Part shown: positions 1-37,912 of the stretch, in pieces
Layout of the letters: each line of letters opens with the position of its first letter
Position numbering within the stretch: the first letter of the stretch is position 1
NCBI GenBank assembly: GCA_046563655.1
Contig: CM102289.1
Span: forward strand, 1,798,001-1,862,000
Length of the DNA: 64,000 nucleotides
DNA from: Yuukianura sp. NJ FZ-2021
Lineage: Eukaryota
Direction: 5' to 3'
The notes under the pieces: generated by a model
What the model saw: only the letters and a program-made list of their open reading frames with translations
Told to the model about the DNA's origin: nothing
Databases searched by the model: none
Made by a program: the position numbers and the translations under genes

Positions 1-97
1 CCTGAAAACAATGAAGCTCATTCCCCAATTAGTTCTTCGGCCTGGAGACGGTTTACATTTGAAATTTTCAAAATTACCTTAAAAAATCAAAGTTTTT

Positions 98-9668: not shown

Positions 9669-10719
9669 ATGGAAGCAAAAAAGGACGTCGTCGAGTGCGG
9701 GAAAAGCGTCAAGGCAGTACACCTTCCCAGACATCTGAAGTATCCTCGGAACATTGGCGGATTTGAATGTACAAAGTGTTTCAAAACGTTTTCAAACAAA
9801 TGTAATTTAATGCGGCACATGCGTATACATACTGGCGAAAGGCCTTTCATTTGCTCCGAATGCGGGATGGCATACGGACGGAAAGACTATCTACAAATTC
9901 ACAGTCGTGAACACACCCAAGAATTGTTTCAATGCAGCAACTGCCCAATGGGTTTCAAAACAAAAAGTAATCTTAAGCTGCACTACATAACACATACTGG
10001 ACAAAGTGATTTTATGTGTAGTTTTTGTGCGTTTGCTGCTCCAAGCCGTATTGCACTTGAGCGACATTTGACAAAACATACAAGGGAGAGGGCGTTCCAG
10101 TGCGACAAATGCCCAAAGCGGTTTGGCGCTAAATCAGATCTTGGAACGCACAGAAAACGACATTTGAGTGAAAATAAACTCCAGTGTGCATTCTGTGACT
10201 ACCAAAGTCGCAAAAACAATGTAAACTATTTTTATACTTTTTCAATAGAACATAATTGTGTAATTGCTAAATTAACTATTTTTTATGTAGGAAATGGATG
10301 ATCACATCAGGCGACATGTTGGTGAGAAGGCGTTTCAATGTTCACACTGCCCTCACGCAACGATAACAAAAACTGAGCTAAATCTTCATTTAAAAACACA
10401 TGGAGTCGGGAGAAGGACGTTTGACTGCGACATTTGTCCGAAACGACTAGCTTCTAAGCTTAGTCTTGTGGACCACAAACGACTCCACAGTGGGCACATG
10501 GAGCAATGTCAATTCTGTCAAAAGCGTTATACGAATGTATATAGCTTGAAGAATCATGTGAAGAAGATGCATACCGCTGGTACTGCCGTAAGAATTGGCA
10601 ACTCCAAACAGGCAAACGCTACAGTCGATGCCGCGCTAGAAAACCGCCAAAAGTCATGCGCAGAAACGGGCTTAGAAATCAGGAAACTGCGGATAGTCTT
10701 GACTCGAATTGATGAGTAG
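9669..10719 (+). CDS. Tandem C2H2 zinc-finger protein ZF1 (~326 aa, 2 coding exons)
   Basis: Exons 9669-10220 and 10291-10719 (phase 0 intron). It has multiple CxxC...HxxxH fingers with HTGERPF-type linkers and ends IRKLRIVLTRIDE. Confidence 0.9.
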
Positions 10720-11478
10720 TAAGCGCATTGGTCAAACACTTTACATACAAATACGGTCGTATTTAACTTGCAAAACTTTAGCTAGTACATAAAAACTATT
10801 ACAAGTTGTAAAATGTATAAATTCCTTGAAGTAAAGCGCATTCAAACCACCTCAAATTTTTAGAAATTCGTGTACTTAATGTAATTGACGTTTGCTATTA
10901 GTTGTAAAAACATTCCAATTCGTCCATTTGAATAAAAACCGAGTAATAAAAGCACGCCATAGCTGGTTATGCTCACCGTTTTCATTTTCAGTAACAAACA
11001 AAATGATCCGGGCAGAACATTTTTTTTCCTTGGTGTCGTTTTCCTTGTACTTTTTAATGGCGTTAGTTCCAAAGTGGTTGAGTCGCACTGAACTTTCTGT
11101 GGCAAGAATGCTTATAATCCTCAGCAAATTCTCAAATGGATGGACAATTTTAGAACAATGAAATGGCAACCCTTTTTTAAACTTTGTTCAAATGAACTAT
11201 TATCGGAGTTCTTCCCTTTTCCCAAATAACTGCAATTTCTTCAAACACATTTTGAATCTGTAACATTGGAGGTTCAGATAAATTTCAACACTTGAACTAA
11301 AAGGAGGTTCGTAAAGATTTCGACGTTAAAAGTAATTCCTCTTCCGTTCCACTTCAGGTAATTTTTCATCATACTTTATTTCTTTTCCTATTTTAAAAGC
11401 ACAACTTTGAAAAAAAAAACTTAAACTAAATACAGAAGTCGGCTCATTGCTATTTTGATTTTTTTCTACAGAGGTCAC

Positions 11479-12407
11479 ATGGAAACAAAATCGGACGTCG
11501 TCGAATGCGTCCAATGCGGTAAAAGTGTCAAGGTGCGATGGCTAACCGGACATATGAAGATTCATTCCAACATTCGACCATTTGAATGTACAACTTGTTC
11601 CAAAACGTTTTATAAGAAGCATAATCTAACGCAGCACATGCGCGTACATACTGGGGAAAAGCCTTTCGTTTGCTCCGAATGCGGGAGGACCTTTGCACGA
11701 AACGACGAGCTACAGAGTCACCATCGCGACCACACCCAAAAATTGTTTCAATGCACCTACTGCCCCAAGGGTTTTAAAACGAAAACAATTTTGAAAAGGC
11801 ACTGCGTAGCACATACTAGAGTCAGCGACTTCATGTGCAATTTTTGTCAATATGCTACCGTAAGTTCTTCGGCCCTTAATCGACATTTGGCTACACATAC
11901 GGAGGAGAATGAATTGCAGTGCGACAAATGCCCAAAGCGTTTTGGATCCGAATCAGGCCTTGCACGTCACAGAAAACGACATTTGAGTAAAAACAAACTC
12001 CAGTGCGGATTGTGTGACTACCAAACTCACTTCAGACGTGTAATGTGCTTTTTGAAATGTTTAAATTAAAAATAATTATTTATTTGTTCATTATTTAATT
12101 ACTAAATTTGTTTTATTTAATAACTAATTATTTCTAGGACATGGAGGATCACATTAGGCGACATGTTGGAGAGAAGACGTTTCAGTGTCCGCATTGCATT
12201 TTTGCAACTATAACCAGCTACGAGTTAAATCGTCATTTAAAAAGATCACACGGAGTCGGGAGTCAGAATACTTCTAAGCGTAATCTCGTAAAATTCACAG
12301 CAGCGGTAGGAAAGCGTCCAAAGTCATGCGCAGAAACGGGTCTGGAAACCCGGGAACTTCAAATTTGCTTGAGTCGCATTGATGAATATAACCAGATTGT
12401 AAGTTAA
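11479..12407 (+). CDS. Tandem C2H2 zinc-finger protein ZF2 (~276 aa); last two fingers deleted in frame
   Basis: Exons 11479-12039 and 12138-12407, with the same intron position as ZF1. It ends [19 protein letters not shown]. Confidence 0.88.
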
Positions 12408-12827
12408 GCGTGTTTTGGTGTTATGCTTACTCTTCAGTTGCATTTGGCTTACATAACTTTAGCTACATGCAAAATTAGGTTTGTACGTTTAATACGTTTA
12501 GTACGTAAAATATTCGAAGAATAACTAAATATTTTATTTTTAATAAATATTTCACCGTCTTCAAGGAAACATTAAATAAATATTTCTTTCATCTTAAAAA
12601 AAATTGTTTACTGTATTACTTAAAAAAAAAAAAAAAATTCTTTCATCTATGCTTATTACTCTAGCATTTGTGCTCATTTCTTCCAATAAATACTTCCAAC
12701 TAAAAATTTCCAAAAGGTTTGCTTGCGACAAAATTTGTGAAAGTTGGTAATTGCCTTTTTCTAAAAAAAAAAATAGACGGTAGATATTTTTGTACAATTT
12801 TTAACTTAGCTGAATGAGTTTATTATT

Positions 12828-14088
12828 CTAAAATGCTAAGAGGAGGTTCACAATTGAGGCAACAACTACTTGTGACCAAAGGAACAAAACAAATTCTTTT
12901 GTTTCAAAGGTAGAAAAACCTCCAAGAGAAATGCGCAATGGAGTCATGCTCTTCCAAAATTTTGAATTGTATTTTAAGCTGGATATTCTTGCTTGTTTAC
13001 GAGCTAGTTCAATTAAACTTCTAGACAAAACGTTCTGATCAGTTGAAATAGACAGGAATAAGGCTGCACATACGATAGCAACAAGATCTACAGTAACAAT
13101 CAGAAAAACTATCGCAAGAGAATAGTCACCGCTGGCGCGAATTGCAAAAAATGAAAATACGACAATACCCGCCAAACTATTAATAACGTATACAGTAATT
13201 ATATTTCCAATAGATACTATAAATTCTTCACCAATTACTTTAACTTTCAAATACTCCAATGAATCTGGACAAATTTGAGTTCCAAAGCAATCGCCTACTT
13301 TCTGCTGGCGAGTTTCCCTAGAAACAAAAATAGCAAATACTTTAAATTCAATTAAAAAACTGAAAGCAACAACAAGAATACAAATACTCAACCTACTCGA
13401 TCAGATCCTTTAGCCTTTGATTAGTTGTGAACAAATACATAAAGATCCAATGAAACAGAGTAGCAACATTAACCACCGCATGACCCATGCCAACTGCAAT
13501 ACTTGTGAAAGCAATAAATTTGAAAATTGCGAATAGCCAGACGAACGTGGTAGACTGCGGAGTGCTGAGTTGTGAAGCAATACTTGCCAGTACATTGTGA
13601 ATTGTTGTGAATAGCCCAGGTAATGCCCATGACATAGCGTATAAGAATGGCAATAAGATGAACGGGTACATTATTGATGCCAAACAGACGAGGAAACATA
13701 TGAGTTCAAAAGAGCGCGGCAATTTTCTGGATAGATGGAACTTGGTATCCAGAATAACGTTTGTGACGTTGAGGCAACGTAGTCGTGTGGTCGGAATAAG
13801 TAGAATATATTGTGACAGATGATTTATACTAAGGATACTATTTAAACCAAAAGCAATTACTTTTTCAAATTTTGTCGTATCACCAACCACGATTTCAAAG
13901 TACCAATATGCTATAAATCCTCCAGCAAAAATCGTAGAAAATACTGCAAACATGTTGTAAGCTAGCTTGTTCTTAGTGTGAACAATAGTATCGGGCTGTC
14001 CATGTCCAAAATCGTATATAACAGGTAAGTAGTGCAGAAATCTTGACCAAGTATACATTAACCTTACCCACAAATTTGTTCGATCCAT
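12828..14088 (-). CDS. Gustatory-receptor-like multi-pass (7TM) chemoreceptor (~393 aa)
   Basis: Exons 14088-13397 and 13317-12828 join in frame (phase 2). It has multiple hydrophobic helices and a C-terminus FWKSMTPLRISLGGF...SIVNLLL typical of the arthropod GR/OR superfamily. It is a close paralog of 34379-35651. The family call is inference. Confidence 0.72.
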
Positions 14089-14569
14089 CGTATTTCCTCG
14101 ATGTAATGTTGTCAATAACTGTGTAATAGAAATAACACCAAGAAATATAACGTTTTCAGCAACGAATATGTTCTGGAACGTAGAATACATGAGTATATAT
14201 AGTTAAAACCGCAAGAAAACGGTGTTTTGACTTTGTCAAAAATTATACAAATTTTTGTCCATTAATTACGAGAACATGCTATTCTACTCCTAATTTACTA
14301 CTAAAACATGTTTTTAGAAAATAAGGTTCTGTGTAATAATATTTCATAATAGCACTTTCTAATATGTATTTTTCTTTTAACGCGGTTGTTATTTAGGCTT
14401 ATGGAAGAAATTATATCTTGGTAGCCCATTTTTTCAAAGCTTATGCAAGAAGTAAAAGCAATTAAAAAAATGCGTGGGTTCTCTGCTAACTTTTAGTAAG
14501 TCGAAGTTCATTGAAAGTTAAAGATAGGTTTAAGTAAATTGACAACTTTTGTGAACTTGTGAAACTTTA

Positions 14570-14730
14570 TTTTTAGTTACCTAAATTGTATTCTACCAGA
14601 GTAATAATTTTTTTTAGTAAATTGTAACTTACGCGATTGCTTAACTTTTTTTTAGTAAATTGTACCCTCCGCGAGTAAGTAATTAAATTTTGCCTTAGAA
14701 ATTTGTACTCACCAGAGTAATAATTTTTTT
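14570..14730. repeat. Degenerate ~40-bp tandem repeat (about 4 copies)
   Basis: Units resembling TAGTAAATTGTA...(CCA/CGC)GAGTAA...TTTTTT recur between GR paralog 1 and ZF3. Confidence 0.5.
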
Positions 14731-15495
14731 GGAATATCGATTCGTGAAATTGCACAAGAAATGCGACAAAATATTCCCTACTGGGGAATGCAGTATTGGA
14801 AAGAACAAGAAAACAAAGTTGGTCAATGTCATCATTTTCATTTTTAGTCGAATTTTTAAGTATTTTGGGAGAAATGTTTATGCTACGAGCGATTGAGTTG
14901 CTTATAATATTCCGTAGCGTGGTTAGTTTAATTACGACACTACGTTACAATTACTACCGAATTTACTTGTCTCCAACTTCCTCTGGATGCATACTTCTTT
15001 CGTGACTTAAAACATTTGTGTTTCTCATTCTTCGAATAAATACTTTCAACTGAAAATCTTTTTTTGAAAATAATTGTTTCCCAATTGGTTCATTGTGTAT
15101 ATCCTAAAAAGAAAGGAACCCTAGCTATTTTTGTACAACAAAGCCAAGGTCGAATTTTTCTTCGAACAGAAATGCGACCAAAAAATTTATCAGTACAGTA
15201 TTCCTTTTACTGTGCTGAACGACAATACCTTTTCACAAAAATATAACTTTTCAGAGTTGAAACATTAGGGGTTTTCAATGCTCAATAATTTCCAATTATT
15301 TTGGTTAAAATTAAGTTTAAATTAAGACAAATTTGAAAACAGCCAAGACAGTTTTTGCGATTCATACAGATCTCATTCAGCATTTTAAAGAACTCTGTAC
15401 ACAAACGAACGTCCACTGTTAAGGTATTTTTTCATTATTTTAAATTTTTATTTAATTTAGGTTCACAGGTTGGATTTTTTTTTAGAGCAAATAGA

Positions 15496-16581
15496 ATGAC
15501 ACCTAAATGCAAACGAATTAGAGGTTACAAGGAGACAAAAACGGACGTTGTCGAATGTGTCCAGTGCGGGAAAAGCATCAAGGCGCAATGTCTAACTCAG
15601 CATATGAAGATTCATTCCAACATTCGACCATTTGAATGTACAACGTGTTCCAAAACGTTTCACAGGAAGTCTCATCTAACGCAGCACATACTCGTACACA
15701 GTGGCGAAAAGCCTTTTGTCTGCTCCGAATGTGGGAACGCCTACGCACGAAAGTACCAATTGTTAGTTCACAATCGTGAACACACTCAAGAATTGTTTCG
15801 ATGCAGCAATTGCCCAATGGTATTCAAGACAAAACAACATCTCAAGTCTCACATGGTATCTCATACGGGGGTCAGCGACTTCATGTGCGACTTCTGTAGA
15901 TATGCTGCTCCAAGTAGTTTGTCACTCAAACGACATTTGATTAAACATACGAAGGAAAGAGCATTCCAGTGCGACAAATGCCCACGGCGTTTTGGAATCA
16001 AATCTAACCTTGCAACTCACCGAAAAAGACATTTGAGTGAAAATAACCTCCACTGCGCATTCTGTGACTATCAAACTCCCATCAGATATCTAATGTGTTT
16101 TTTCTTTAAATTTTGAAATTTAAACTATTTATTTAATTGTTGAATTAATGGTTTATAGGAAATGGATGAACACATTAAGCGGCATGTTGGTGAAAAGATG
16201 TTCCAATGTCCGCACTGTTCTCACGAAACTGTAACAAAAGCTGATCTAACTGCTCATTTAAAAGTACACGGAGTTGGGAGAAGGACGTTTGACTGCGACA
16301 TTTGTCGCAAACAATTCTCTTCTACGACTACTCTTGTGAACCACAAACTACTCCACAGTAAACAGGGGAAACAATGTCAATTATGCCATAAGCGTTATAC
16401 AAATGTGCATGATCTGAATAAGCATATGAAGAAGCATCATATCACTGGTAGTGCACCTAGAAATAGCATACTGAACAGTGTAAAGTCCACAACCTCACTA
16501 GTGAACCGCCAAAGGTCATGCATAGAGACGAGTATGAAAACCAGGGAACTCCGAGTTTGCTTGACTCGAATTGATAAGTAA
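15496..16581 (+). pseudogene. C2H2 zinc-finger paralog ZF3 with a destroyed splice donor (possible pseudogene or truncated isoform)
   Basis: Homologous exons 15496-16089 and 16159-16581. The donor that reads GTAATG in ZF2 and ZF5 reads CTAATG at 16090, and the unspliced frame stops at 16116. Confidence 0.65.
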
Positions 16582-17391
16582 TCTATTATAATTCAAGCGT
16601 ATTATATGCTTCCTCTCAGTTGTATGTATTTATCATACATAACTTTAGTTATATGAAAATCTCGTTACATCTCGTAAAGTGGTGGTTTGTTGCACTAATG
16701 TAAGTGTAAGTTTTATGTTTTCAGAAATTGATGTTTTTTTTAATGTAAATTGACCTTTGCGATAGTTATAAAAGCATTTGAATCGGTCCGTCTGCGTAAA
16801 AAGCAAGGAATAAGCAGAAATGGATTTGCCGAAACGACTACGCTGCAGTTGAAGAATTTCAATTTTATTAAAAAATAAAATCAGAGCAGAAAATTCTTTT
16901 ACGTGGGTATGTTTTTACATCTAAATTCTCATCGCGTAGTTTGTTACAAAATTATTGAATCGCGTTGCACATTGCACTTTTTCTCGGCAGAATGTGTGCT
17001 GCTGCTGCGTACGTATAATGTGCAGGAAATTCTCAAAAAAAAGGACAATTTTAGAACAATGAAACAGAAAATTTTTAAAACCTTTTTTAAAAACTTTGTT
17101 CAAATGAACTTATTATTAGTGTGTTTCGACCCACCAAAATAAGTCAACGCAAACTTCTTCAACAGAGAATTTGGTTGAAGTGGGAACATTGCAGGTTCAC
17201 ATAAATTTCAAAAATAGAACAACTTAAGCTAAGTTTCCGACTTTAAAAAACAAATTTCAAGTCCGTTTTTTTCAAAACAGAGCGAAGGAACATCTAAGTT
17301 TGCTGTAAGTTGATAAGTTTTGGTAAATTCTTATTTGCAATAACGCAATAGTACTTTATTTTTTTCATTTTTAGAATAGGTAGTTGGGATA

Positions 17392-18456
17392 ATGGCAACC
17401 AAATGCCAGCAGGGTCAAAGTGCCCAATTCAGCAGTAAAAACGTCAAAACGGAAAAACTTTCTCGACATCAAAACGTCAGCGTTCGACCATTCGAATGCA
17501 CAACTTGTTCCAAAACTTTTCGATTTCCATGCGATTTGAGGCAGCACATACGTGTACATACCGGGGAAAAACCATTCGTCTGCTCCGAATGCGGAAACGC
17601 CTATAGGCTGAAGGCGCAACTAAATTCTCATAGTCGCTACCACACTAAAGAGTTGTTTGGATGCAGCGAATGTCCAAAAGTATTCAACACTAAAACATCA
17701 CTCAAGATTCACTTTGTTACGCACACTGGAGTAAGTGACTTTATTTGCACTATTTGTGAATATGCTGCTTCAACTGCTTGGGGACTCAAACTTCATTTGG
17801 TCACACATACGAAGGAGAGAAGTTTCCAGTGCCACATATGCCACAAGCGTTTTAGATTCAAAGCAAACCTCACATCTCATACAAAACTACATTTGAATAA
17901 AAATATGCTCCAGTGTGCATTTTGTGACTACCAAGCTCACATGACACGAGTAAGCTTTTGTTTAGTTCTTAAATCCAGAATAATTAATTCGCGTAATTAC
18001 TAATTTAATGATTTATGATAACGATAGGAAATGGAGATTCATATTAGGCGACATGTTGGTGAGAAGCCGTTTCAATGTCCGCACTGTCCTTACGCCGCTG
18101 CAGGAAGTAGCGTGCTAAATCTTCATTTAAAACAACACGCATGCGGGAATAGGACGTTTGACTGCGATGATTGTCCCAAACAATTGATTCCTAAGCGTGC
18201 TCTTGTAAAGCACAAACGAGTTCACAGTGGAGACAAGGAGCATGAATGTCAACTCCGCCAAAATCGATACACAAATTCACAAATGCTGTATAAGCATGTC
18301 AACAAGTATCACCCAACTGGTGCTGCCACAAATTATGACAACTTGAAATCCGCAATCGATGAAGAAACTGCACTAAGAAACTGTCAAAAGTCATGCGCAA
18401 ATACAGGTACCGAAACCCGGGAACTTCGAATTTGCTTGACTCGAATTGATGATTAG
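17392..18456 (+). CDS. Tandem C2H2 zinc-finger protein ZF4 (~328 aa)
   Basis: Exons 17392-17949 and 18028-18456. The first and last fingers are degenerate (missing Cys). It ends TRELRICLTRIDD. Confidence 0.88.
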
Positions 18457-19269
18457 AGGTAAAGCGTGTTGTGCTTGCTCAATTTGCACAATTAACATAA
18501 CTGTGGCTTTTACGAAACCTACTGTAACTTGTCAAAAAATGTACGTTTGTTGCAAGGTTATAATTATATTTCATATTTGCAACGATTGAAATGTTTTATA
18601 TAATTGACGTTAATTATGGGGGTAAAAGCTTTTAAATTATTGGTCCATTTGAATGAAAAGCGAAAAATAAACATCACTATTTATTTTACTATTTATTTTT
18701 AGTGGAGTTTTAGAAAAAGGTTTGTTTAGAAAGATTTTTTTTTTGTTTTCGAAAAACAATTTTCATCGCACGGTTTTTGAAACCTTGGACATTTTTAGCA
18801 GTTAGTCATTTTTTTTTCAATAAATCCTTCCAACTCAAAATTTTCAAAAACGTTGTTTTAGCATAATGCTTTAAAATTAGTTTTAACAAATGTCTTGCTC
18901 GAAAAAAAGGACGGTAACTATTTTTGTACAACGAAACAAAAGTCCCTTTTTCCTTAAAAAAAAGTAAAAAGCAGTGTGACCAACAAAAAATTTATCAGTA
19001 GTAGTACACATAAAACTAAACTCACACAAACAGACAAAATTCAAACCGGCTGAGAACTTTCGGGGTTTTTACAAATAGTTCTGATTTGGCTTTTTAAAAG
19101 AACACTACAGGGGTGTTCACTTTTAAGGTAATATTTTTTGTATTACTTAAGGCCTTAGCTTTAAAATTTTTTAAGACTGAATTAAAAAGTCGGCGTGTTA
19201 TTCCTTGAATTTTCTTTTTTTAGACAAAGTGGAATAACACATAAATCCAAGCGACCTGGTCACCTGGTC

Positions 19270-20089
19270 ATGCAAAAGGAAGCGGATTTCGTGGAATGCG
19301 TTCAATGCGGGAAAAGCGTCAAAGCGCGAACTCTACCCCGACATATGAAGATTCATTCTAACATTCGACCATTTGAATGTACAACATGCTCCAAAACGTT
19401 TTACAGGAAGAGTCATCTAACACAGCACATGCGCTTGCATACTGGCGAAAAGCCTTTCGTCTGCTCCAAATGCGGGAAGGCCTACGCACAAAAGCAGCAT
19501 CTATTAACTCATAATCGCGAACACACTCAAGAATTCCTTCGATGCAGCCACTGCCCAGTGCCCAATGGTATTCAAAACAAAACAAAATCTCCGGCATCAC
19601 TTGATAACCCATACGGGCGTAAGTGACTTCATGTGCAGTTTTTGTCAATATGCTGCTCAAAGTGCTGGGTCACTCGAAGTTCATTTGGTGACACATACGA
19701 AGGAGAAAGCTTTCCAGTGTGACAAATGCTCAAAGCGTTTTGGATCCAAGTCAAACCTTACATATCACAGAAAACGACATCTGAGTGAAAATATGCTCCA
19801 GTGTGGATTTTGTGACTACCAAACACACGTCAGACATGTAATGTTGTGTTTTTTATATTTAAATTGACAATAATTATATAATTGATGAATTAATGATTTA
19901 TAGGAAATGGAACAACACATTAGACGACATGTAGGTGAGAAGTCGTTTCAATGTCCGCATTGTCCTCAAGCAACTGTAACAAAATGGGAGCTAAATTGTC
20001 ATTTGAAAAGACACGGAGTCGAGAGAAGGACGTCCCTAGGACTGGAAACCCGGGAACTTCGAATTTGCTTGGCTCGAATTGATGAGTAA
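19270..20089 (+). pseudogene. C2H2 zinc-finger paralog ZF5, frameshifted
   Basis: A 7-bp tandem duplication (TGCCCAG TGCCCAA, 19552-19565) shifts the frame in the fourth finger, giving a stop at 19626. The rest of the gene, including the intron at 19838-19903 and the C-terminal motif, is intact in the other frame. Confidence 0.8.
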
Positions 20090-20262: not shown

Positions 20263-20355
20263 TCAGATGAATTCGCAAAGCGCCAAAAAATTTGTGCAGA
20301 AGAGCCACTGGAAAATCGGGAAATTCGTATTTTCTTGAAAAGAATTGATGAGTAG
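20263..20355 (+). pseudogene. Orphan 3' end of a further ZF paralog (C-terminal motif only)
   Basis: Translates SDEFAKRQKICAEEPLENREIRIFLKRIDE*, homologous to [24 protein letters not shown]. No fingers lie upstream in frame. Confidence 0.7.
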
Positions 20356-25518: not shown

Positions 25519-28402
25519 TTATAGATACCAGTTGAAAAATTTTCGCCTCCGATTTTCTTGAGACTTGAGGTCGACAACTATTGCTTGTGGACTACGCTTT
25601 AGCAAATGTGTCACTTCGTACAGAAAAATCAAAATAGTTAAAAGAATGCAGTACATCAGAATGTAAAAGCCAGTGGCAATGTTTCCCGCCAAATTAATTT
25701 TTTTCGGTAATCCATCCAACCATGCAGAATTCAAATTTTGTTTCAAAATCTCATCCATGATTTCCGGATTGTGAATCTTCCACCACTTCACCCAGAGATC
25801 GTAGATACCAGAGTGGAGCAAAATAGCAAATGTGTTGTACAAGTAATCAGACTTGGTTGGAAATACGTAAGTATCAGAGAACAGAGTTGCATTGCCTTTG
25901 CGAAAGAAAACTCTCTTAATTCCAGAATTCCCGTGATTCGTTTCATCTCTGCGCATCATATTTTCGTAGTTAGCTACAAACATGTTCAAATTCTCTTCTG
26001 ATCCTAAAAATCCCAATCTTTCACACTGGCTGAGGACTTGGGCCATTCGAAACAGGGTGTGGTTGACATGCCATTTGTTCGTAGGTTCCAGTAACACTTC
26101 GCCTATCAGGAAAGATGGCGAAAAATTTGGAAATCTACTTTGATCTGACAGTTTCTTCCATGCAGACCTGCTGGAACTGTTATTCGCCAAATAGTACATC
26201 CATTCACCACATCTGTGGCGAAAGCCATAAGAAGAAAATTGTGATGCGTTTACGCATTCTCCGCTCCTCTTCATGACCTCAACCAACTCATCCCGAGTGT
26301 TATTTGGCATCGTCCCAATGTGGTCGAAAGGTACGCATCCTACGGTAGTGTCGCAGTCACAGAACGTAGATTGGAGTAGTTCAGGATATTTGATGACTTC
26401 CATTGCATAGTTGTTCATGGCTCTTATGCGACTGCCAATTCCATAACTTCCCTCTCCGTCGGCGTACACAAAGAAGTTTACCAGCTGAGGGAAAGTGTGA
26501 TACGTTTGGGTGATGGGTGGAGCAGTGGTTAGATAGGAAACTAAAACATTCGGTTGCAGTGAACCAGACTACTACCCAATGTTAACACTGTAACACTTAT
26601 AACCACATGCAATTAAAACATGCCCACAAGTGGTAAGTTTTAAATATTGGGTTCTGCGAAGTGACGGAAACGATGTTCCCAGTTTTGGTCACTTTTCAAA
26701 ATTTTGAAAATTGAAAAGCAATGTTGCTAGAGCAACCAATTGAAATCTACAAGAGGTTGTACCTACAAGGTAAGAGGGCAGTGGTTTCAAAGGGTGTAGT
26801 TTGGTAGACTGCAACCTAGTATTCCTTTGTATGCATTCGTGAGGACTACAGTAATGAGGAGCCAGAGGCTGAATGCAAATAGTCTCTTTTTGGTTCCTTG
26901 GCGTTCCGGCATTTCCTGACATTGGTCAATTAGGACTGACAGAATCACAACGACTGCTCTGGGAATGTTTTTCAAGTACTGAATGATTTGGCTACAATTG
27001 GTAGCGAAGTGGACATAGGTGACGCTGGACACAAAAAAGATAAGAATAACCAAAATTCCTGCGAGTATTGTCCAGAAGTAGATGTCAAATGGGGCTATGT
27101 AAAATTCGTAGTCGAGTATATCTTTGGTTCCATCGCAAGTTAAAAAGTTGAAGTCAATTGAGCCGAGAACAAAGAGCTTTATGGAGAAGGTAAGTTTAAA
27201 ATTGTCAACACCGAATAGACCGTGGTGGACACCATACCTAGCGATGGATGCCATAATTTGTTGATAAGTGGGCAATTGTTTGTCCGCTTTAGCAGCCTCG
27301 CTTGAATCGTATATTTCCAATCTCTCCACGAGATTCAAATCCATCCACTGCTCAAATTGCAAACCAAGTTTTGACTGTTTGAACGGGCTGCAAAATGAGA
27401 AAAAACGCATTAACATCATGCTAAGAAAACAGAGAGAGAGACAAACAAACGAAAAAATAAGAAAAAACATCGTTTTGTATTTCAAAAATTTCAGAGCTTA
27501 TTGTGCGTTATTAAATTAGATGAAGTGTCGTACGATTTCTGTTGAAGTTCTGGTATCAAAGTGAGATCAACCTTGATAAAATTTTTGGGCGTCAAATATT
27601 TGCTGCGTTCCATACCAACATACACGGTTCTTGCCGCCAAAGTTCCGTTCCGAACGAGTTGATCGAGAACTTCACGCAGTTTCAATTGGTTTTTCTCCGT
27701 TAAATTTCGTCTTAGTTCGTAGTACCTTACGTGATGAACTACACGCGTAATATATGTACTTACGGGCGATACTACAACTACTTTGGATGGCACTTTCCTT
27801 ATCAATCGCTCGTCATACGCAGGTCCCACCGCTAGCACCACTTCAGTTCCATAACATTCCACTTTCGATATTGCCGTGGCTTGGTAAGAAAATAAAAACC
27901 AGCTGAAGTGATGCATGTCTGACACATACGTATTTGAAAATGGTTCGTTTTGAATAATGTTAACATAGATGTTTAGTTCATATGTGTTAAGATGCTTCCT
28001 CTCATTTGACGGGAAACAAGTAGCAGGGTCGTCTGTATTTTTTCCAAAACCTTTCATAATCAAACGAGGGAAGACAACGAAAAATGAGAAGCAGGTCCTG
28101 TGACTTCCAAGATTTTTCCTGTCAAGTTGTGGTCTAAATACTGACATTGCTGGCGAAATTAATTCCTCATTTTGTCCAAAGCAAAACCGTTTTCGTCCGA
28201 TTTGAACGTAGTAGATTTTAGTGGGAACTTCAAATTCCTGCACAATTTCTGGTTGTGTGTTGTTTGGCGCAAGAATAAAATTGTCACAATCAGGAAATGC
28301 ATTGATTAGGATATTTATGTTCAAAATTTTGGTATCACAATTACAAAATGAAAAGTGGAAAAACAAAATCCCACAAAGACGAAAACCAGTTAATACGTTC
28401 AT
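25519..28402 (-). CDS. Divergent ionotropic-receptor-like membrane protein (~820 aa, 3 exons)
   Basis: Exons 28402-27534, 27387-26816 and 26540-25519 join in frame. It has a signal peptide, FNFLTCD, FYIAPFDIYFW, LWLLITVVLTNAYKGIL, HSGIYDLW and a C-terminal TM, and shares AFPDC with the + strand paralog. Confidence 0.78.
26552..26816. mobile_element. Degenerate TIR element forming intron 2 of the - strand IR gene (introner-like)
   Basis: Imperfect inverted repeats GGTTGCAGTGAACCAGACTACTACCC (26552-26577) and the reverse complement of 26792-26816, GGTTGCAGTCTACCAAACTAC-ACCC, match at 22 of 26 positions. The splice donor lies in the TIR terminus. Confidence 0.65.
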
Positions 28403-29014
28403 TTTCTGAAAAATAAATTACAAAAAAAGTTCAAGATTGAACTTCAAATGCTGACGACGTGACGTTGGCTGATTAAATGATGAGTTCCACGCCCAATTTC
28501 GATCTGGCACACAGAAAAATTTTTTAGTTGAAATGGTGATCATCTTAAGTCGATCGCATGTCGCAAAGAAAATATTCGCGTGTTCCAATAAAATAAATTA
28601 GCTTTCTCTACTTTACAATCACCACAAAAAACTTGAAGAAATTTTCCTTTATCCTTCACCTCGTAAAAATACGGAGTTAAATTAAAAATTATGTAGCAAA
28701 TGTTAGGTTGCCTGTTTGCAAACTGTTTACCGGACACAAAGAATATTAGAACCACCAATATTTCAGTGAGTATTGTCAAAAAGTCGAAGTTAGAAAAGAA
28801 TCCGTAATTGAGGATATCCTACATTCCATTCCACGTTAAAAAGTAGATTTAAGTGATTAACTCAAGAGTGATGCGTTGACTAACCTAACCTCCACCGTCA
28901 GAGATAAAATCACACAAAGATGAATGATCTTTCATTTCATTTCCCCAAAAAATTTTGAGATGAAAATATCTCATGTGAATGTTGATGTTTCTTGTTTCAA
29001 GGAAATGGGAGCAC

Positions 29015-29765
29015 GCCATTTCAACGAATGAATTACAACGAAGTGAATTACCCCGAATGAATTTCCCCGAAACCAATCACAACGAAAGTTGAATTACCCC
29101 GAAGCGAATTACAACGAAAGTTCAATTACAACGAAAGTCCAATTGCAACGAAAGTCCAATTACAACGAAAGTCAAATTACAACGAAAGTTGAATCACAAC
29201 GAAAGTTACTTCCAGGGGTAAATATATAATGTTTCTGAAAAAAAATGAGGAATGAAATATCGTGACCTAGAAGTCCGCCTTCTCGACATTGTTCAAAATT
29301 TTGGAAATATGCCTGGCTCGGACTACCTTTTAGGAATCGCACACAATATAGGTTTCTATGTTTAGATTTTGTTTAGGTTATTCAGATTGTGTTGTTTAGA
29401 ATTTTTAGTAGTTTTTGGGTTTTATAGGCTAAGATTTAGTTAATTCTTCGACAATCAACTCAATTGTTTTTTTTACAAGATCATCTAAATTGTTTTTTTT
29501 ACAAGATCATTGAATCCTTTTTCAAAATAAATCATCATTGTTGCTTATAACTAAGGAAAACCCCATTTCAGAACAATTCAGAATTTTTTTCGTTGTAATT
29601 GGACTTTCGTTGTAATTTGACTTTCGTTGTAATTGGACTTTCGTTGTAGTTGGACTTTCGTTGTAATTGGACTTTCGTTGTAATTGGACTTTCGTTGTAA
29701 TTCGCTTCGGGGTAATTCAACTTTCGTTGTAATTGGTTTCGGAGAAATTCATTCGTTGAAATGGC
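29015..29765. mobile_element. Foldback-like MITE with arms of inverted ~17-bp tandem repeats
   Basis: It has a 20-bp TIR GCCATTTCAACGAATGAATT (29015-29034, inverse 29746-29765). The left arm repeats AATTACAACGAAAGTCC (~29030-29207) and the right arm repeats its reverse complement (~29588-29735). Confidence 0.85.
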
Positions 29766-29774
29766 ATGGAACCA

Positions 29775-30098
29775 TAGATGCGGCATTACCGTTAATCTTC
29801 GGTAATTTGGGCATATACTGAAGCATGCGAAATTCAGCTTTTTCGTATTTTTTGTCAAAATAATCTCACTCCGTATTATAGGTAAAATAATGAATTTAAA
29901 TTTGATCAAACAATAAACCAAAGTGAAGAAAAAATACAGATTCAGTGTGAATTGCAATTCCTTTTCCATAAAAAAATGGGCTCCATATGCTTTACATGTA
30001 AAATTAGCATTATCGGTTAACCGGTAATAGAAGCCAACAATTACCGGTAATTAGCGATTACCGATACTAGCGAAACATTACCGGTAATAGGAACCCTA
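29775..30098. mobile_element. Degenerate MITE with ATTACCGGTAAT subterminal palindromes
   Basis: The left end TAGATGCGGCATTACCGTTAAT resembles the reverse complement of the right end, TAGGGTTCCTATTACCGGTAAT. Several ATTACCGGTAAT-like motifs occur at 30010-30088. Confidence 0.4.
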
Positions 30099-31722: not shown

Positions 31723-32189
31723 AAATGCACACGGACAATTAGACATCTCCAATTATCTATTCTTACGAGTGACTTGCGGTCATCCCTTGAGCACTACCCT
31801 TCGTTGTTGTTTTTTTTCTTGGTAATTAAGCGGAGCAGTAGAATAATAAGCAATTACTCGAGTTACGTATTTCCCATAGATCTTGATTGGTATTTTCGCC
31901 GTAAATTTTCTGTTCTGCCATAACAACACTCTTTCTGCAAAACTTCCATCTTGAAGAAGGTGATACAATCTTCGTCAACCTTGAATAAATAATTCTGTAC
32001 CAATGCGTATGCCAGTTCATTAGTTCAGGTGACTTACTTGTTCACTACTGTGCATGACTGGGTTTATTCTGTTTCTGGGTAGCTTGAGGTACAAATCAAA
32101 GAACTGTAAAAAAAAACTACGTTATACTATTAGTATATTATATTTTTACTCTTAGCCTCACTTTTTCAAAAACGTTCCCCAAAATTGAA

Positions 32190-34019
32190 ATGATTATACA
32201 AAAGCTTGTTCTCAACTGTTTGGCATTCCCTCCATTTCTATTGCTTTTAGTGATTGCATTCCCATTTCTAGCCATTCTTTGGTTACACCGCATCATCGTC
32301 ACTTTAATTTTGAAACCTTTGTTCCGGAGAGACTTGAAAAAGGCCATTTCTGGCATTGAATTGATCTACTCATTTGAAAAGTATTGGAATGGAACGCGAG
32401 AGGCAATTTCAATGGTGCATGTCGTTCAAGGGACGCTGGATGTAGAAAAAGTGAAACAACGGCTGACTGACGTGATTTTGTACAAAAGACTCAGCACTCC
32501 AGAAGAAATTTTAAACTACGACCGTCTCACGACGCTTCACCCGTTAAAGTGGATGGGTTTCGTTTTTTGGAAGGTCAGTTCTGAAAAATTCGATTTAGAG
32601 AAGCATGTTTGTGTGGTCGACACAAACACAACTACGGAAAATTTCAGCGTTAATAGAACACTGGTCGAATGGCTCAGAAGTCCATTTCCGAAGGATCGTC
32701 CTGTATGGAGTGCAATAATTATTCCAGGTATTTAGTGAAAGTCAATGTTTAAATCTATTAGTGAAAGTTTAGTGAAATCTCTTATATTTGTATACTATAC
32801 ATGTATATTTTGATACTTCAAATTTGTTGTTCAGGTTACAGAAATGAGCAGGATGAGCAGAAGTCACTTGTTGCGTTCCGAGTTCATCACGTTGTGTCCG
32901 ACGGTTACTCAATGGTAGACTTTATCGGACGACTCTACGACGAACCTCACAAGAACAACTCACCTACGCGGACTGTCAACATATACACTGACATCATTCA
33001 GCAACTATTTTGGTCACCACTTACCGTGTTCAACCTGGTAAACACTTACGCCGTCAAAACCGTTGCTGCAAATCTCCCCACCTCATTCAAGAATTGGTTA
33101 CGAAACAACACAACTTCAACTGGACGGCAAAAAATGACTTTGATCACAACACATTTTGACCTCAACGAACTCAAAGCTCTCCGAAAAAGTTTAAGCAAAA
33201 ACTTTCAAAAACAAGTTACATTTGCTACGCTGATTTGGTTCCTATTGGCTGGAGCTCTTCGACGGTTGTACCGCAGTGGCCACTTTGATGCGGCTAAAGC
33301 AAAAATGATTACACGCAAAGGACAGCTCAAATTTAATGTCGGCTACGGTACGCCAAGGCGCTCACCTCATCCACTTCGCTCATTTTGCAACCATTGGTGA
33401 GGCCAATAAATATTTTACATGACACTACATTACAAATATGCCTAATTAATATATCTTTTTTAATAAATTTTTAAATTTTGTTTACGTATTTATGAATAGG
33501 GCTATGAACAACTACAGCGTGCCGTTTGGACATGAAACAAGCCAGGAACGACTAAGGCAGATGATCCAAACTTATTCTTGGCGCGAAACTTCAAAAATTG
33601 GTGACATGGATACCTGGTTACACGCAGTTGTAACAAACGTCCTGCCAAATTCCTTCCTTTCCATGATTATCGAGGCAGCAACGCCTAGCGTCATTGGACT
33701 TACAAATCTTCCTGGATCACAAACTTTAGTTCACTTGTGTGGTGCTAAAGTGGAGGAAATTTATGAACTGACTGGACTACTCTACAAACGATACAGTAAA
33801 ATTACTTAAGTAATTACAAAATTTCTAACCAATTTATGCTAAAGTAATTTTCGTATGCTCAAAGGTTTTACACTTGGATGCTACTCATACAACGATCGGC
33901 TTGGAGTGACGCTTTTATCTGATGCCGAAATCTTGAATGACAAAGCATCTGAGAAGTTGCTCAAAACCTACTTTCGTGAAGAAATTAACGAACTCACTGC
34001 GAAGTACTTAAATCCTTGA
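32190..34019 (+). CDS. Wax ester synthase/diacylglycerol acyltransferase (WS/DGAT, WSD1-like O-acyltransferase; ~516 aa)
   Basis: Exons 32190-32727, 32835-33396, 33500-33795 and 33865-34019 join in frame. It has an N-terminal TM, FDLEKHV, PFPKDRPVW, the catalytic HHxxxDG (RVHHVVSDG), and C-terminal TNLPG and YSYND motifs. Confidence 0.85.
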
Positions 34020-34378: not shown

Positions 34379-35651
34379 TTAAAATGCTAAGAGGAGATTT
34401 ATAATTGGTGAAATAACTACTTCAGACCAAACGAACAAAATGAATTCTCTTGTTTCAAGGGACGCAAAACCTCCAATACACATGCGCAATGGAGTCATGC
34501 TCTTCCAAAATTTTGATTCATATTTTGAATAGGAGTTTCTTGCTTGGTGACGAGCCATTTCAATTAAACTTTTAGACAAAATGTTGTGATCAGTTGAAAT
34601 GGACAAAAGGAGGGCTGCCCATACTATACCAACCACATCGGCAGTAGCAATAACAAAAAGAAGAACAGAAAAGTAGCCACTTGCACGAATTACGAAAAAC
34701 GAGTAAATGACAATACCCGTGAAACCATTAATTAGATATAGAGTAATTGTAGTACCTCCAAAAGCTACCTCAAATGCTTTACCAATTACTTTAACTTCCA
34801 AATACTCCGATGTTTTCCTACGAGGTCCAAGATAATTTCCTTCATTCTCCCGGCGCAGTTTACTATAAAAAAAAATAAAAAAAAATACTTTAAATTTATT
34901 TTTAAAAAATACAAAAATGGTTCGATTATTAAAACTAAAAGCAGTAACCACAGTACAAATTTTACTCCGCCTACCCGACCATTCGGAGATCCCTCAGAAG
35001 TTGACGAGTTGTGAACAAATATAAAAAGATCCAGTGAAACACCGTAACAAGATTAACCAATGCATGACCCATTCCAACTGCAATACCAGAAAATGCAATA
35101 AGTTGTAGAATTGACTCTGGAATGCTGAATTGTGAAGCAATAAGTGCCAGTATATTGTGAATTGTGGTGAACAACCCAGGTAATGCCCATGATGCTGCGT
35201 ATACGAATGGCAGGAAAAGAAGCGGATACATTATTGATGCAAAACAGAAGAGGAAACATAGCATTTCAAAAGATCGCGGCAATTTTCTGGATAGACAGAA
35301 CTTGGTATCGAGAGTAATGTTTGTGACCTTGATGCAGCGTTGTCGTGTAGTCGGAATAAGTAGAATCCATTGTGACATATGCTGCATATTAAATACACTG
35401 TTTAGACCAAAAGCAATTATTTTTTCAAATTTTGTCGTATCACCAATAGCTGTTTCGTAGTACCAACATGCTATAAATGTCCCAACAAAAACTGTAGAAA
35501 ATACTCCAAACACCTTGTACACTGTGTTGCTTTTAGTGTAAACAATAGTATCAGGCAGTCCATGTCCAAAATGATATGTTACAGGAACGTAGTGCATAAA
35601 TGTTGTCCAAGTATACATTAACCTTACCCATAAATTCGTTCGATCCTTCAT
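34379..35651 (-). CDS. Gustatory-receptor-like multi-pass chemoreceptor, paralog 2 (~386 aa)
   Basis: Exons 35651-34975 and 34862-34379 join in frame. It has the same intron position as 12828-14088 and high similarity to it (DRTNLWVRLMYTW, GDTTKFEK, FWKSMTPLR). Confidence 0.72.
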
Positions 35652-36380
35652 AATGCCTTGACTTTTATGAAATTTTGAATAAAAACTTGTTTAATAGCAA
35701 AACAAAAAAAAAACTACGACTTAGGGCTACTACGATTTGACTAGAATGGTTTTATTTAGCGATTGCTAGGTTGTGTGTTCAACGCATGCAAATCGTACTA
35801 AAGCTGCAGCAAGTAATTTATAGGAGAAACGCCAAATCAAACAAAGTGATTTAATTGATTGATAAAGACGCTTTTGTTTTTCAAGTCTGTCCAAACATTT
35901 CAAAATATTGATAATATCTTTGCTAACTATTGCAAAATTGAAGGTCATAAGAAATTGAGAATGTGTTTCTAAATGTCAAGGTTTAAGAACTTGTTGAAAA
36001 TTTTGCTTATATGCGTGTTCTTTTCATATGCGTCTCATAATGCCTCGACTTTTAAGTAATTTTGAGTAAATAATTTACAATTTAACATTTCACGGTTTTA
36101 CTTCAGCAATAAATGTGTTCTGTTTGTTTTTAGGATTAAATAAGTATTTTTCTTTAGCAGGTTAGACAATTACTCTATCTTTAAATAAATCGCAAAGAAA
36201 AAAAATCAACCAATTGGAGTTATTGCCTAACACGACAATTTCTTTGTTTATCAGCGTTGCTTTTCTCAATCATGTTTGTGGAAACATTTCAAAAAACTGT
36301 AGTTTCTTTGCTAACTGTTGCTAAATCGAAGGTAATGGGTATTTGAGAATGTTCTCAGAAAAATTCAAGCTTTAATAACT
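35649..36380. repeat. Diverged ~390-bp tandem duplication of the GR paralog 2 upstream region
   Basis: CATAATGCCTTGACTTTT at 35649 corresponds to CATAATGCCTCGACTTTT at 36036. TCTTTGCTAACT...GAAGGT...TTGAGAATG is present in both copies. Confidence 0.65.
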
Positions 36381-36914
36381 TTGTTTTTGTAAACTTTAAA
36401 TATGCCGTAACTGCCCCGAAATCAAACCGTAAGAAATAGTTTAAACACATTGCAATTGTAAGTCAGATTTGAAGCTGCTGCCTGTTAGGTTCAATTACGT
36501 TAAGAAAACAATGGAGGGTCACAATTTTAGAACAATGGAATTTGGATGGACCCAGCTTTTTTTAGATTTTGAGCAAAACTATGATGAAGCTACAGAAATT
36601 TTTTCGTGTGCTAAGACAAACCAAACTATTAAAAGACTAAAAACTATTCAAGTTTGCTCATTTGAAGACAAGACACGAAGCTGACAGGAAACTTGCGTAA
36701 TTTTTGTTTTGGTTTGCAAATTTTTATTTCCAAATTCCAATTATTGAATTGCACAGCAAAATCTATACAAGTATCATTTCAGGAAGCAGGTATCTCGCTA
36801 ACGTATACTTCTCAGCTTTTCCATTCTAATATTTAAATTTTACAAGACTTTAAAGAGCCAATTTGCATACAAAAAAGAAACTTATTTTTCTCTGCAATTT
36901 AGACAAATTGAAGA

Positions 36915-37912
36915 TTGAGTCGCAAAATTCAACAATTTCAAGGTCAATTACGCACTCCATCAACAACGGAAGTGGTCGCTTGCACTGAATGTGGCAAAAA
37001 CGTCAAAATGCAAAGTCTTCCTCAGCACATGCGCATACACACTGGGGAAAACCCATACGTTTGCTCCGAATGCGGAAAAGCCTTTGGACGAAAGGACCAT
37101 CTTCGAAGGCACAGTCGTGGACATTCTCAAGCGTTTTTACGCTGCCACGACTGCCCAAAAGTGTTCAAAAACAAACAGAATCTCAAGAGTCATATTGTAA
37201 CCCACACAGGAGTAAGTGATTTCGTGTGCAATTTCTGTCAATACGCTGCCCAAAGTTCCACAGCACTGGAGAGACACATTGCAATCCATACCAACGAGAG
37301 ACGTTTCCAGTGCGAATCATGCGCAAAGTCTTTCAAGTGTCAAATAAGTCTCACACAACACATGAAATTGCATGGAAAGAATAAGCTCAACTGCAAATTT
37401 TGTGATTATCAAACGCAGAACACACAAGTATGTTCATTTTTTTAGTTTCGAAAATAAGCGTCATGATGTAATATTTTAATTTTGTTTAGAGAATGGACAC
37501 TCATGCCAGGCGACATGCTGATTCAAAGAAGATTAGTCGATGTCCGCACTGTCCTTATGCAACTGCTACCTACGATGAGCTAAAAACTCACGTGAAATTG
37601 CATACACTTCAAAAGATGAGGACGTATGACTGCGACATTTGCTTCAAAAAACTTAGTTCTAAACATAACTTAATTTACCATAAAAGAATCCACAGCGGAC
37701 AATGGGAACAGCATGGATGTCAGTTCTGCAACAAACAATTCACACATCCCAATACGCTGAAAAGGCATGTGAAGAAGCAACATGCCACATGTAGTTTCAG
37801 TAGAAGTATCTCGACGCTCGATTCCACGAACATGCCAGGACATCTGAACTGCGCAGAAGCAGTTCTGGGAATTAGACAAGTCCGTGTTTGCTTAACACGT
37901 ATTGATGAGTAA
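36915..37912 (+). CDS. Tandem C2H2 zinc-finger protein ZF6 (start codon uncertain)
   Basis: Exon 1 ends at 37427 and exon 2 spans 37490-37912, with the same intron position as the cluster genes. It ends IRQVRVCLTRIDE. The first in-frame ATG is at 37008, inside finger 1, and there is an in-frame TGA at 36909. Confidence 0.78.

What the first reader, a model, noticed from the sequence alone, without database searches (positions are those of the whole stretch)
9669..37912. Zinc-finger family without KRAB or ZAD, carrying a conserved C-terminal candidate effector peptide (possible new chromatin-targeting system)
Seen: six C2H2 paralogs and one relic have no N-terminal effector domain. All end in the same peptide: [72 protein letters not shown] and RQVRVCLTRIDE. 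The peptide stays in frame in ZF2 and ZF5, where two different internal deletions removed the preceding fingers, and the linker before it varies freely. Recognition helices diverge strongly between paralogs (homologous finger: RKDYLQI / RNDELQS / RKYQLLV / LKAQLNS / QKQHLLT / RKDHLRR). Established: the HP1 chromoshadow domain binds PxVxL/LxVxL peptides, and BET-protein ET domains bind alternating hydrophobic/basic peptides such as the MLV integrase tail PLKIRLTR. The motif fits both patterns. Inference: a rapidly turning-over DNA-binding array with a fixed cofactor-recruiting tail, functionally analogous to KRAB-ZNFs and possibly targeting repeats like the nearby satellite and MITEs.
Basis: partly seen in the sequence, partly recalled or inferred. 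Interest (0 to 1): 0.8.

Follow-up and report, generated by a model that had tools for sequence, protein, structure and literature searches.

The report
Zinc fingers with HP1-docking tail
At least 33 zinc-finger gene copies in this arthropod genome (some broken) end in the same short, selectively conserved peptide that likely docks the chromatin-silencing protein HP1 directly, which would give these DNA-reading proteins, whose recognition residues change fast in one subfamily, a built-in route to silent chromatin without the adaptor that vertebrate KRAB zinc fingers need.

Summary
The tail is real: 7 matches against 0.075 expected. Corrections: ZF5 is frameshifted before its tail, ZF3 has lost its GT donor and the relic is a fragment, so only four of six genes reach the tail. 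The 'free' linker is a decayed zinc finger. The tail ends at least 33 finger genes on 5 contigs, in two subfamilies. It is under purifying selection (dN/dS 0.30; linker 1.11; base-contacting residues 1.81). It fits the published HP1-binding signature (hydrophobic -2, I/V 0, L +2, basic +4, hydrophobic +5) in 31 of 33 motifs and the BET-ET motif in 2 of 33. Against: 23 of 33 carry Glu at -3, which that signature excludes. Folding against this genome's HP1 gave weak support (0.60, best control 0.02). A related 26-gene family lacks the tail yet diversifies faster, so the tail does not explain the diversification; earlier scan notes probably describe that tailless family, none the tail. Repeat targeting and expression are untested. 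Verdict: likely direct HP1 tether; new variant of a known kind.

The parts
9669..10719 (+). ZF1: intact gene, coding exons 9669-10220 and 10291-10719, 326 aa, 9 C2H2 fingers, tail at 10681-10716
11479..12407 (+). ZF2: intact gene, exons 11479-12039 and 12138-12407, 276 aa, 7 fingers, two in-frame deletions in the last exon, tail at 12351-12386 plus 6 residues
15496..16581 (+). ZF3: 338 aa and 9 fingers if spliced, but the last-intron donor reads CT (16090-16091); tail at 16543-16578; probable pseudogene, truncated form or assembly error
17392..18456 (+). ZF4: intact gene, exons 17392-17949 and 18028-18456, 328 aa, 8 canonical fingers, tail at 18418-18453
19270..20089 (+). ZF5: 7-nt frameshift at about 19558-19564 ends the ORF at 118 aa; last exon 19904-20089 has a 237-nt in-frame deletion and the tail at 20051-20086
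20263..20355 (+). Relic: fingerless fragment of a last exon (end of linker, tail 20317-20352, stop) behind the ZF5 3' flank
36915..37912 (+). ZF6: ancestral start lost, ORF from Met 37008, exons 37008-37427 and 37490-37912, 280 aa, 8 fingers, tail at 37874-37909 (full match to the HP1-binding signature)
10576..10680 (+). ZF1 linker between last finger and tail: remnant of a C2HC finger, evolving at about the neutral rate in the young clade

Best explanation
These are lineage-specific tandem C2H2 zinc-finger genes whose conserved C-terminal peptide is likely an HP1 box that would bind across a chromoshadow-domain dimer, so each intact protein would couple a presumably sequence-specific finger array directly to HP1. 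Shown: the gene anatomy, the family size, purifying selection on the tail, neutral decay of the linker, faster-than-neutral change at base-contacting positions in subfamily A, the fit to the HP1-binding signature, and HP1 genes with a conserved chromoshadow domain in the same genome. Inferred: numbering the central Ile/Val as 0, the strand L(-2)-R-I/V(0)-x-L(+2) would lie in the dimer groove, Arg+4 would pair with the conserved Asp of the domain, Ile+5 would add a hydrophobic contact and Arg-4 would mirror Arg+4. The common Glu-3 may pair with the Arg of the ERLTW strand, mirroring the Glu+3 contact reported for KAP1. The outcome would be either HP1 brought to finger-bound sites (repression) or the fingers held in existing heterochromatin, as for fly Oddjob; which of the two, and which DNA is bound, is unknown.
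For: Selection: ML codon model, 12 young subfamily-A genes, last exon: tail dN/dS 0.30 (differs from 1, p=2.6e-8), linker 1.11, helix positions 1.81 (p=1e-4), finger framework 0.45; 18 genes: tail 0.20. With the tail's own synonymous rate 0.40 (p=0.007); six window genes alone 0.28 (p=0.004); positions +2, +4, +6 show no amino-acid change in 18 genes. Subfamily B tail 0.17 (p=4.6e-8, 6 genes). Tail-independent check: a finger-only search found 16 subfamily-A genes; 15 have the tail, all with L+2 and R+4; the 16th is truncated. Signature: PMC12526061 (abstract and sections 14, 17, 18, 19 read) defines HP1a ligands as hydrophobic -2, V/I 0, aliphatic +2, nearly invariant basic +4, hydrophobic +5 in about 80%, basic favoured at -4; 31 of 33 tail motifs meet the core, 7 of 33 meet every rule. 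KAP1 P486-R487-V488-S489-L490-E491 binds this way (PMC13021124, passages). An unrelated C2H2 gene carries the canonical Pro form P-R-I-Q-L-T-R-I-D at its N-terminus, the only genome-wide match to that pattern (control 0). One gene has the tail twice in tandem and C-terminal extensions vary from 0 to about 20 residues, as for an internal docking motif. Four chromoshadow genes exist; the best matches vertebrate HP1 domains at E 1e-33 to 1e-36 with GATD and YEERLTW intact. Complex prediction, two copies of that domain with the last 30 residues of ZF3: 0.60 against best control 0.02, runs agreeing in at least 90% of contacts, partner pLDDT at least 58; weak support: the mark was reached by 51 of 78 solved and 2 of 108 mismatched pairs, but at 0.60 or under by only 5 of the 78 and by all 4 mismatches that passed, and likeness to solved HP1-peptide structures may explain it. 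Background: 0 of 133 unrelated C2H2 proteins have the pattern in their last 30 residues.
Against: Glu at -3 in 23 of 33 motifs and Glu at -6 in many break exclusion rules of the fly signature; only 7 of 33 match fully; two have Leu at position 0. PxVxL-like strings are common and predict binding poorly (PMC12526061 section 14). The tally used a filter that requires L+2 and R/K+4, so invariance there is circular; only the 15-of-16 check is independent. The tail was delimited after seeing its conservation; the young-gene tree is poorly resolved (bootstrap 25-62) and gene conversion was not modelled; in 18 genes the tail's synonymous rate is also somewhat low (p=0.028). Two of six window genes do not reach the tail. 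A related family of 26 genes examined has no tail yet shows helix dN/dS 2.62, and subfamily B helices are not significantly above 1 (1.21, p=0.16). No binding, localisation or expression data.
Confidence: 0.66

Rival explanations
1. The tail binds the ET domain of the single BET protein (or a YEATS-family ET-like domain) and would link the fingers to active chromatin.
For: Alternating hydrophobic/basic start (L-R-I); the peptide LKIRL binds BRD4-ET (PMC11939847, passages); one BET ET domain is in the genome.
Against: The ET consensus is K-phi-K-phi; 2 of 33 motifs match it and position +1 is basic in 0 of 33 (C 16, V 12, Y 3, L 1, T 1). The ET consensus does not call for the strongly kept R+4, I+5. 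The AF9/ENL-type consensus (recalled) needs a hydrophobic residue where these have Arg or Gln at -4. No ET complex could be folded (one job only).
Confidence: 0.08
2. The tail is a docking strand for another partner: an unknown co-regulator, SUMO, or another copy of the zinc-finger protein (dimerisation).
For: The conserved Glu-3 and Asp+6 are not part of the fly HP1 signature; a short amphipathic strand can bind many folds; subfamily B L-K-I-V-L resembles a SUMO-interacting motif (consensus recalled).
Against: Subfamily A does not fit a SIM, and SIMs want acidic flanks, not fixed Arg; the kept positions are those HP1 ligands keep; the control with the HP1 domain replaced scored 0.02.
Confidence: 0.15
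3. The tail is a degradation signal (D-box-like R-x-x-L or a C-end degron) that keeps these DNA-binding proteins short-lived.
For: R(-1)-x-x-L(+2)-x-x-I(+5) fits the recalled D-box pattern in most subfamily-A genes; the motif sits at the end of the protein.
Against: Position -1 is Lys, Gln or Thr in several genes while +4 never loses its basic residue; the distance to the stop varies and one gene has it twice; a like motif is N-terminal in another gene.
Confidence: 0.06
4. The tail is conserved for non-protein reasons (recent duplication, gene conversion or an RNA element at the stop codon).
For: Third codon positions in the tail are 76% identical against 59% in the linker; local synonymous rate is slightly low in 18 genes (p=0.028).
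Against: dN/dS stays below 1 with the tail's own synonymous rate (0.30-0.40, p 0.007 to 6e-6); identity falls to 53% right after the stop; the motif persists between subfamilies with different finger arrays and between genes with dS near 1.9; indels before it keep the frame.
Confidence: 0.05

Closest known systems
Drosophila Oddjob (Odj), a ZAD-ZNF protein with an HP1 box (PMC7655104, passages read; PMC12526061 section 14)
   Same: Fast-evolving clustered C2H2 gene; a PxVxL motif outside the fingers sets broad heterochromatin localisation (V164A makes it focal).
   Different: Odj has an N-terminal ZAD and the motif lies in its linker; its neighbour Nicknack lacks a canonical motif; selection in ZAD-ZNFs is not centred on the fingers. 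Here there is no ZAD, the motif is C-terminal and shared by at least 33 copies.
KRAB zinc-finger proteins with KAP1/TRIM28 (PMC10547256, PMC6444547, PMC13021124; passages)
   Same: Clustered birth-and-death finger arrays, positive selection at base-contacting residues, fixed effector part; the route ends at an HP1 box.
   Different: No KRAB domain and no adaptor needed: the HP1-box-like peptide is in the finger protein itself. No evidence here for a methyltransferase or NuRD link, or for transposon targets.
FiNZ zinc-finger genes of cyprinid fish (PMC10547256, passages)
   Same: Lineage-specific expansion marked by a short conserved non-finger sequence; positive selection on fingers.
   Different: FiNZ is a 28-residue acidic N-terminal exon with no known partner, and knock-down derepresses transposons; this tail is about 11 residues, C-terminal, basic-hydrophobic, with a nameable candidate partner and no functional data.
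ZF271-like / APEZ families of Hemiptera (PMC6444547, passages)
   Same: Arthropod tandem clusters of finger-rich genes with pseudogenes, no KRAB.
   Different: Described as having no domain besides the fingers, with partners left as an open question; like this genome's tailless family C, unlike the tail-bearing subfamilies A and B.

Membership tests
HP1 chromoshadow ligands (PxVxL / HP1a Access Code) | Core: hydrophobic -2, Val/Ile 0, aliphatic +2, basic +4 | tested here: met
   31 of 33 tail motifs (filter partly enforces +2 and +4); independent of the filter, L+2 and R+4 in 15 of 15 tails among 16 genes found by fingers alone
HP1 chromoshadow ligands (PxVxL / HP1a Access Code) | 3-6 basic residues from -4 to +4 and no acidic residue at -6, -3, -1, +1, +5 | tested here: not met
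   7 of 33 meet all rules; Glu at -3 in 23 of 33. The rule comes from Drosophila HP1a only
HP1 chromoshadow ligands (PxVxL / HP1a Access Code) | Motif conserved and outside a folded domain | tested here: met
   dN/dS 0.17-0.40; lies after the last finger; disorder was not computed
HP1 chromoshadow ligands (PxVxL / HP1a Access Code) | Physical binding to a chromoshadow dimer that depends on the central residue | tested here: inconclusive
   Only a prediction: 0.60 against best control 0.02, weak support, may reflect likeness to solved complexes
BET ET-domain ligands | K-phi-K-phi strand | tested here: not met
   2 of 33 motifs; +1 never basic
KRAB-ZNF | N-terminal KRAB domain | tested here: not met
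   No KRAB hit on 8 exon ORFs of five window genes or one subfamily-B protein; no upstream in-frame Met found
KRAB-ZNF | Works like: positive selection at base-contacting residues with a fixed effector part | tested here: met
   Subfamily A helices 1.77-1.81, tail 0.30; subfamily B helices 1.21, not significant
KRAB-ZNF | Works like: binds and represses transposons or repeats | not testable with these tools
   No binding or expression data
ZAD-ZNF | N-terminal ZAD | tested here: not met
   No ZAD on these genes; one ZAD match in the whole genome, elsewhere (lower bound)
ZF271-like / APEZ finger-only families | Nothing but finger arrays | tested here: not met
   A selected non-finger tail is present; orthology to the hemipteran families was not tested

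The most novel reading that the evidence does not exclude
This lineage runs an adaptor-free counterpart of the KRAB-KAP1 system: dozens of fast-diversifying zinc-finger arrays, in two subfamilies that may have gained the tail separately, each carry their own HP1 box and seed HP1 chromatin directly on young transposons or satellites, while a sister family without the tail works by another route.
Probability: 0.3. Interest if true: 0.82.

Novelty: new variant of a known kind. Interest (0 to 1): 0.6.

Why it matters
How invertebrate zinc-finger expansions without KRAB act on chromatin is an open question: PMC6444547 calls for a search for their partners, and PMC10547256 leaves the FiNZ mechanism open. 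Here a whole family carries a short selected peptide with a nameable candidate partner. That turns the question into a peptide-binding assay and a tethering assay with point-mutant controls, and the genome supplies its own negative control (the related tailless family) and natural variants (Glu or not at -3; doubled tail; Pro at -2). It also gives a motif to scan for in other 'finger-only' arthropod families, whose short tails Pfam would not show.

Tried and rejected
Homologs outside this genome: none found with the tail. Last exon of ZF1 against longer proteins gave 2 generic zinc-finger hits; a profile of the old C2HC finger plus tail against 1.84 billion representatives gave 12 hits, none covering the tail; a tail-only profile scored none of 1460 candidates at E<=10 and no PDB chain (chains under 20 residues are not held); a subfamily-B region gave 287 generic hits, 120 listed, 26-43% identity; the Atlas gave only generic finger clusters. 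These searches are weak for an 11-residue motif and do not show absence in related species. RNA: no RNA holder listed for 9400-18600; not evidence on expression. Literature: 10 searches listed no paper describing a zinc-finger family with a shared C-terminal HP1 box; most were seen as listings only, and most subscription papers and all supplements were not seen. I recall that the HP1-binding segment of human LRIF1 is nearly the same as the ZF3 tail; the exact string is in no held paper and the LRIF1 paper is not held, so this is an unverified lead and was not counted. The BRD3-ET paper is not held. Pattern hits outside zinc-finger genes were near the control rate (43 matches against 20 control; the excess is the family); one (C4:4619887) lies in non-coding flank and was dropped from the tally with the two relics and the N-terminal case. 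Predicting DNA targets from recognition codes was not attempted: no tool, and recalled rules are too weak. PP1 (RVxF), PCNA, CtBP and Groucho motifs (recalled) do not fit.
Full report
Setting. The window is G000:C7:1798001-1862000 in a 98.7-Mb assembly of 22 contigs. A neighbouring gene's nearest Atlas clusters are arthropod and shade into ionotropic receptors; 'springtail-like' is my impression from gene style and earlier scan notes, not a tested result.

Observation. Six-frame translation shows six C2H2 genes on the + strand and seven copies of the peptide, against 0.075 expected. Each gene has a 5' exon without an in-frame Met in the splices tried, a coding exon with six and a half fingers or fewer, a phase-0 intron of 62-98 nt that splits one finger, and a last exon with up to three more fingers, a linker and the tail. 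ZF1, ZF2, ZF4 and ZF6 give 326, 276, 328 and 280 aa ending in or just after the tail. ZF3 has CT at the donor and ZF5 a 7-nt frameshift, so neither reaches the tail as assembled. The relic is a fingerless fragment. The frame argument survives more widely: 11 of 11 indel events in the last-exon finger region of 12 genes are multiples of three, against 11 of 34 in the 3' flank; one gene outside the window has a 2-nt insertion followed by a large deletion that removes the intron and returns to the tail's frame.

The family is larger and older. Searches with tails, patterns and fingers found 19 subfamily-A genes (same intron; C7, C3, C2) and 13 subfamily-B genes (tail in one long finger ORF, different arrays; C2, C3, C4, C6), 33 motifs in 32 finger-bearing frames because one gene has the tail twice (37 rows, less two relics, one non-coding hit and one N-terminal case). 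A sample of 20 further finger loci picked without regard to the tail gave 25 frames with two or more fingers, among them one more subfamily-B tail and one candidate with Pro at -2: 33 genes in all, a lower bound that includes broken copies. In five older A genes the linker is an intact C2HC finger directly followed by the tail; in the window genes that finger has decayed and only its last Cys is mostly left. Ascertainment check: a query made only of fingers found 16 A genes, 15 with the tail, the 16th truncated. Of 11 matches to a subfamily-B end, 10 have the tail and one stops before it. The same finger query exposed family C, 26 genes examined, mostly on C8, none with the motif in its finger frame. 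On an 82-column finger module, A groups with the first module of C apart from B (support 100/98, bootstrap not settled, unrooted), so the tail was lost in C or gained separately in A and B.

Selection. Pairwise counts for 11 young A genes gave dN over exon-wide dS of 0.27 for the tail, 0.95 for the linker, 1.34 for helix positions -1, 2, 3, 6 and 0.37 for the framework; of 132 sliding windows the tail ranks with the link between fingers as the most conserved. A codon model on a fixed tree with a shared synonymous rate gave 0.30, 1.11, 1.81 and 0.45 for 12 genes, and 0.20, 0.76, 1.43 and 0.39 for 18 (one degenerate member left out). With its own synonymous rate the tail is 0.40 (p=0.007), 0.30 (p=6e-6) and, for the six window genes, 0.28 (p=0.004). 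The first coding exon of 8 A genes gave helix 1.77 (p=4e-5); 6 B genes gave tail 0.17 and helix 1.21 (not significant); 10 of the 26 C genes gave helix 2.62. Limits: the tail was delimited after the fact, the young tree is weak, conversion was not modelled.

What the tail is. Numbered from the central residue, the consensus is R/Q(-4) E/V(-3) L/I/V(-2) R/K(-1) I/V(0) C/V/Y(+1) L(+2) T/K(+3) R/K(+4) I/L/V(+5) D/Q(+6). PMC12526061 (abstract and sections 14, 17, 18, 19 read; supplements not seen) redefines Drosophila HP1a ligands as hydrophobic -2, Val or Ile 0, aliphatic +2, a nearly invariant basic +4 that pairs with an Asp of the domain, and mostly hydrophobic +5. The most constrained positions here are +2, +4, +6, -1, +5 and 0, and the substitutions seen at +4 (Lys) and 0 (Val) stay inside the signature. 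The misfit is Glu at -3 (23 of 33) and often at -6, which the fly signature excludes; 7 of 33 meet every rule, ZF6 among them. In the HP1-gamma-KAP1 structure Glu+3 of the peptide is held by Arg171 of one protomer (PMC13021124, passages); the site is a two-fold dimer, so Glu-3 could meet the other Arg. That is inference; the Arg is present in this genome's vertebrate-like domain. The ET consensus K-phi-K-phi (PMC11939847, passages) is met by 2 of 33. A separate C2H2 gene has two such motifs at its N-terminus, one with the canonical Pro, the only match to that pattern in the genome. The genome has four chromoshadow genes and one BET ET domain. The one complex job (two copies of the C2 domain with the last 30 residues of ZF3) scored 0.60 against a best control of 0.02, with runs agreeing in at least 90% of contacts and partner pLDDT at least 58; the tool calls this weak, notes that at 0.60 or under only 5 of 78 solved pairs but all 4 passing mismatches lie, and that likeness to solved complexes can produce it. 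No ET job could be run.

Mechanism. Most likely (0.66) the tail is a direct HP1 box. The fingers would read DNA and the tail would hold an HP1 dimer, either to bring HP1 to target sites or to keep the protein in heterochromatin. Oddjob is the tested precedent for the second: a V164A change in its linker motif turns broad heterochromatin localisation into foci (PMC7655104, passages). Nothing here shows the targets. The 59-bp satellite at 96-3696 is spread over contigs C1-C8 (237 matches) and the element at 29005-29775 has long inverted ends, but proximity is the only link.

Novelty. The parts are known: HP1 boxes in single zinc-finger proteins (PMC7655104; motif lists in PMC7465937, passages), KRAB-less expansions in arthropods (PMC6444547, passages) and a short family-wide effector sequence in fish (PMC10547256, passages). 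A family-wide C-terminal HP1-box-like tail on diversifying arrays was not listed in 10 literature searches, and no relative with the tail was found outside this genome; both negatives are weak. Earlier scan notes describe finger-only clusters in this genome that are probably family C, and none describes the tail. I rate it a new variant of a known kind, interest 0.6: a plausible, cheaply testable answer to how some invertebrate zinc-finger arrays reach chromatin, with binding still unproven.

Noticed in passing
L174:1920-2780 (-), G000:C7:6.738 Mb: C2H2 gene of another type with two tail-like motifs at its N-terminus, one with canonical Pro at -2; the only genome-wide match to the Pro pattern.
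   Followed up: partly
L013:8049-8150 (-), G000:C7:1.598 Mb: Older, longer family member with the tail duplicated in tandem (17-residue unit), which could bind two partners.
   Followed up: partly
G000:C8:13.96-14.75 Mb and C3:7.29 Mb (L111-L123, L126): Related family of at least 26 finger-only genes with no tail and helix dN/dS 2.62; a natural negative control. One has a 21-bp tandem repeat just upstream (L113 about 2950-3050).
   Followed up: partly
L194:3385-4479 (-), G000:C7:1.702 Mb: Eight-finger frame ending with a P-x-V-x-L-x-R-V motif 19 residues before the stop; candidate independent HP1 box.
   Followed up: no
L180:2865-2906 (-), G000:C3:4.0869 Mb: A second fingerless relic of the tail just upstream of a subfamily-A gene; like the window relic it has Phe at +1.
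   Followed up: partly
window 96-3696: 59-bp satellite, 61 copies at 99% match, with near-identical arrays on contigs C1-C8 (237 matches): a young dispersed satellite.
   Followed up: partly
window 29005-29775: MITE-like element with long inverted ends built of 17-bp repeats.
   Followed up: no
window 12828-14202 and 34379-35690 (-); L013, L014, L020: A two-exon membrane-protein gene with no Pfam match recurs beside the zinc-finger genes here and 200 kb away, suggesting the two were duplicated together.
   Followed up: no
G000 whole genome: Only one ZAD match (C2:6.572 Mb) but four chromoshadow genes, two canonical and two divergent.
   Followed up: partly
window 4119-6946 (-), 21144-28417, 32088-33809 (+), 38802-46000 (-), 47183-48558 (+): Neighbours read from translations (names recalled, not from a call, except the receptor lead): chondroitin synthase-like, divergent ionotropic receptor-like genes, an HHxxxDG acyltransferase, a discoidin-domain receptor, an annexin.
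   Followed up: no
L013:3814-6060 (+); L016:8764-9996 (+): A long intact transposase-like frame next to the old zinc-finger member, and a nucleotidyltransferase-like (OAS/cGAS-type) frame near the C7:1.64 Mb pair; both names recalled from the translation.
   Followed up: no
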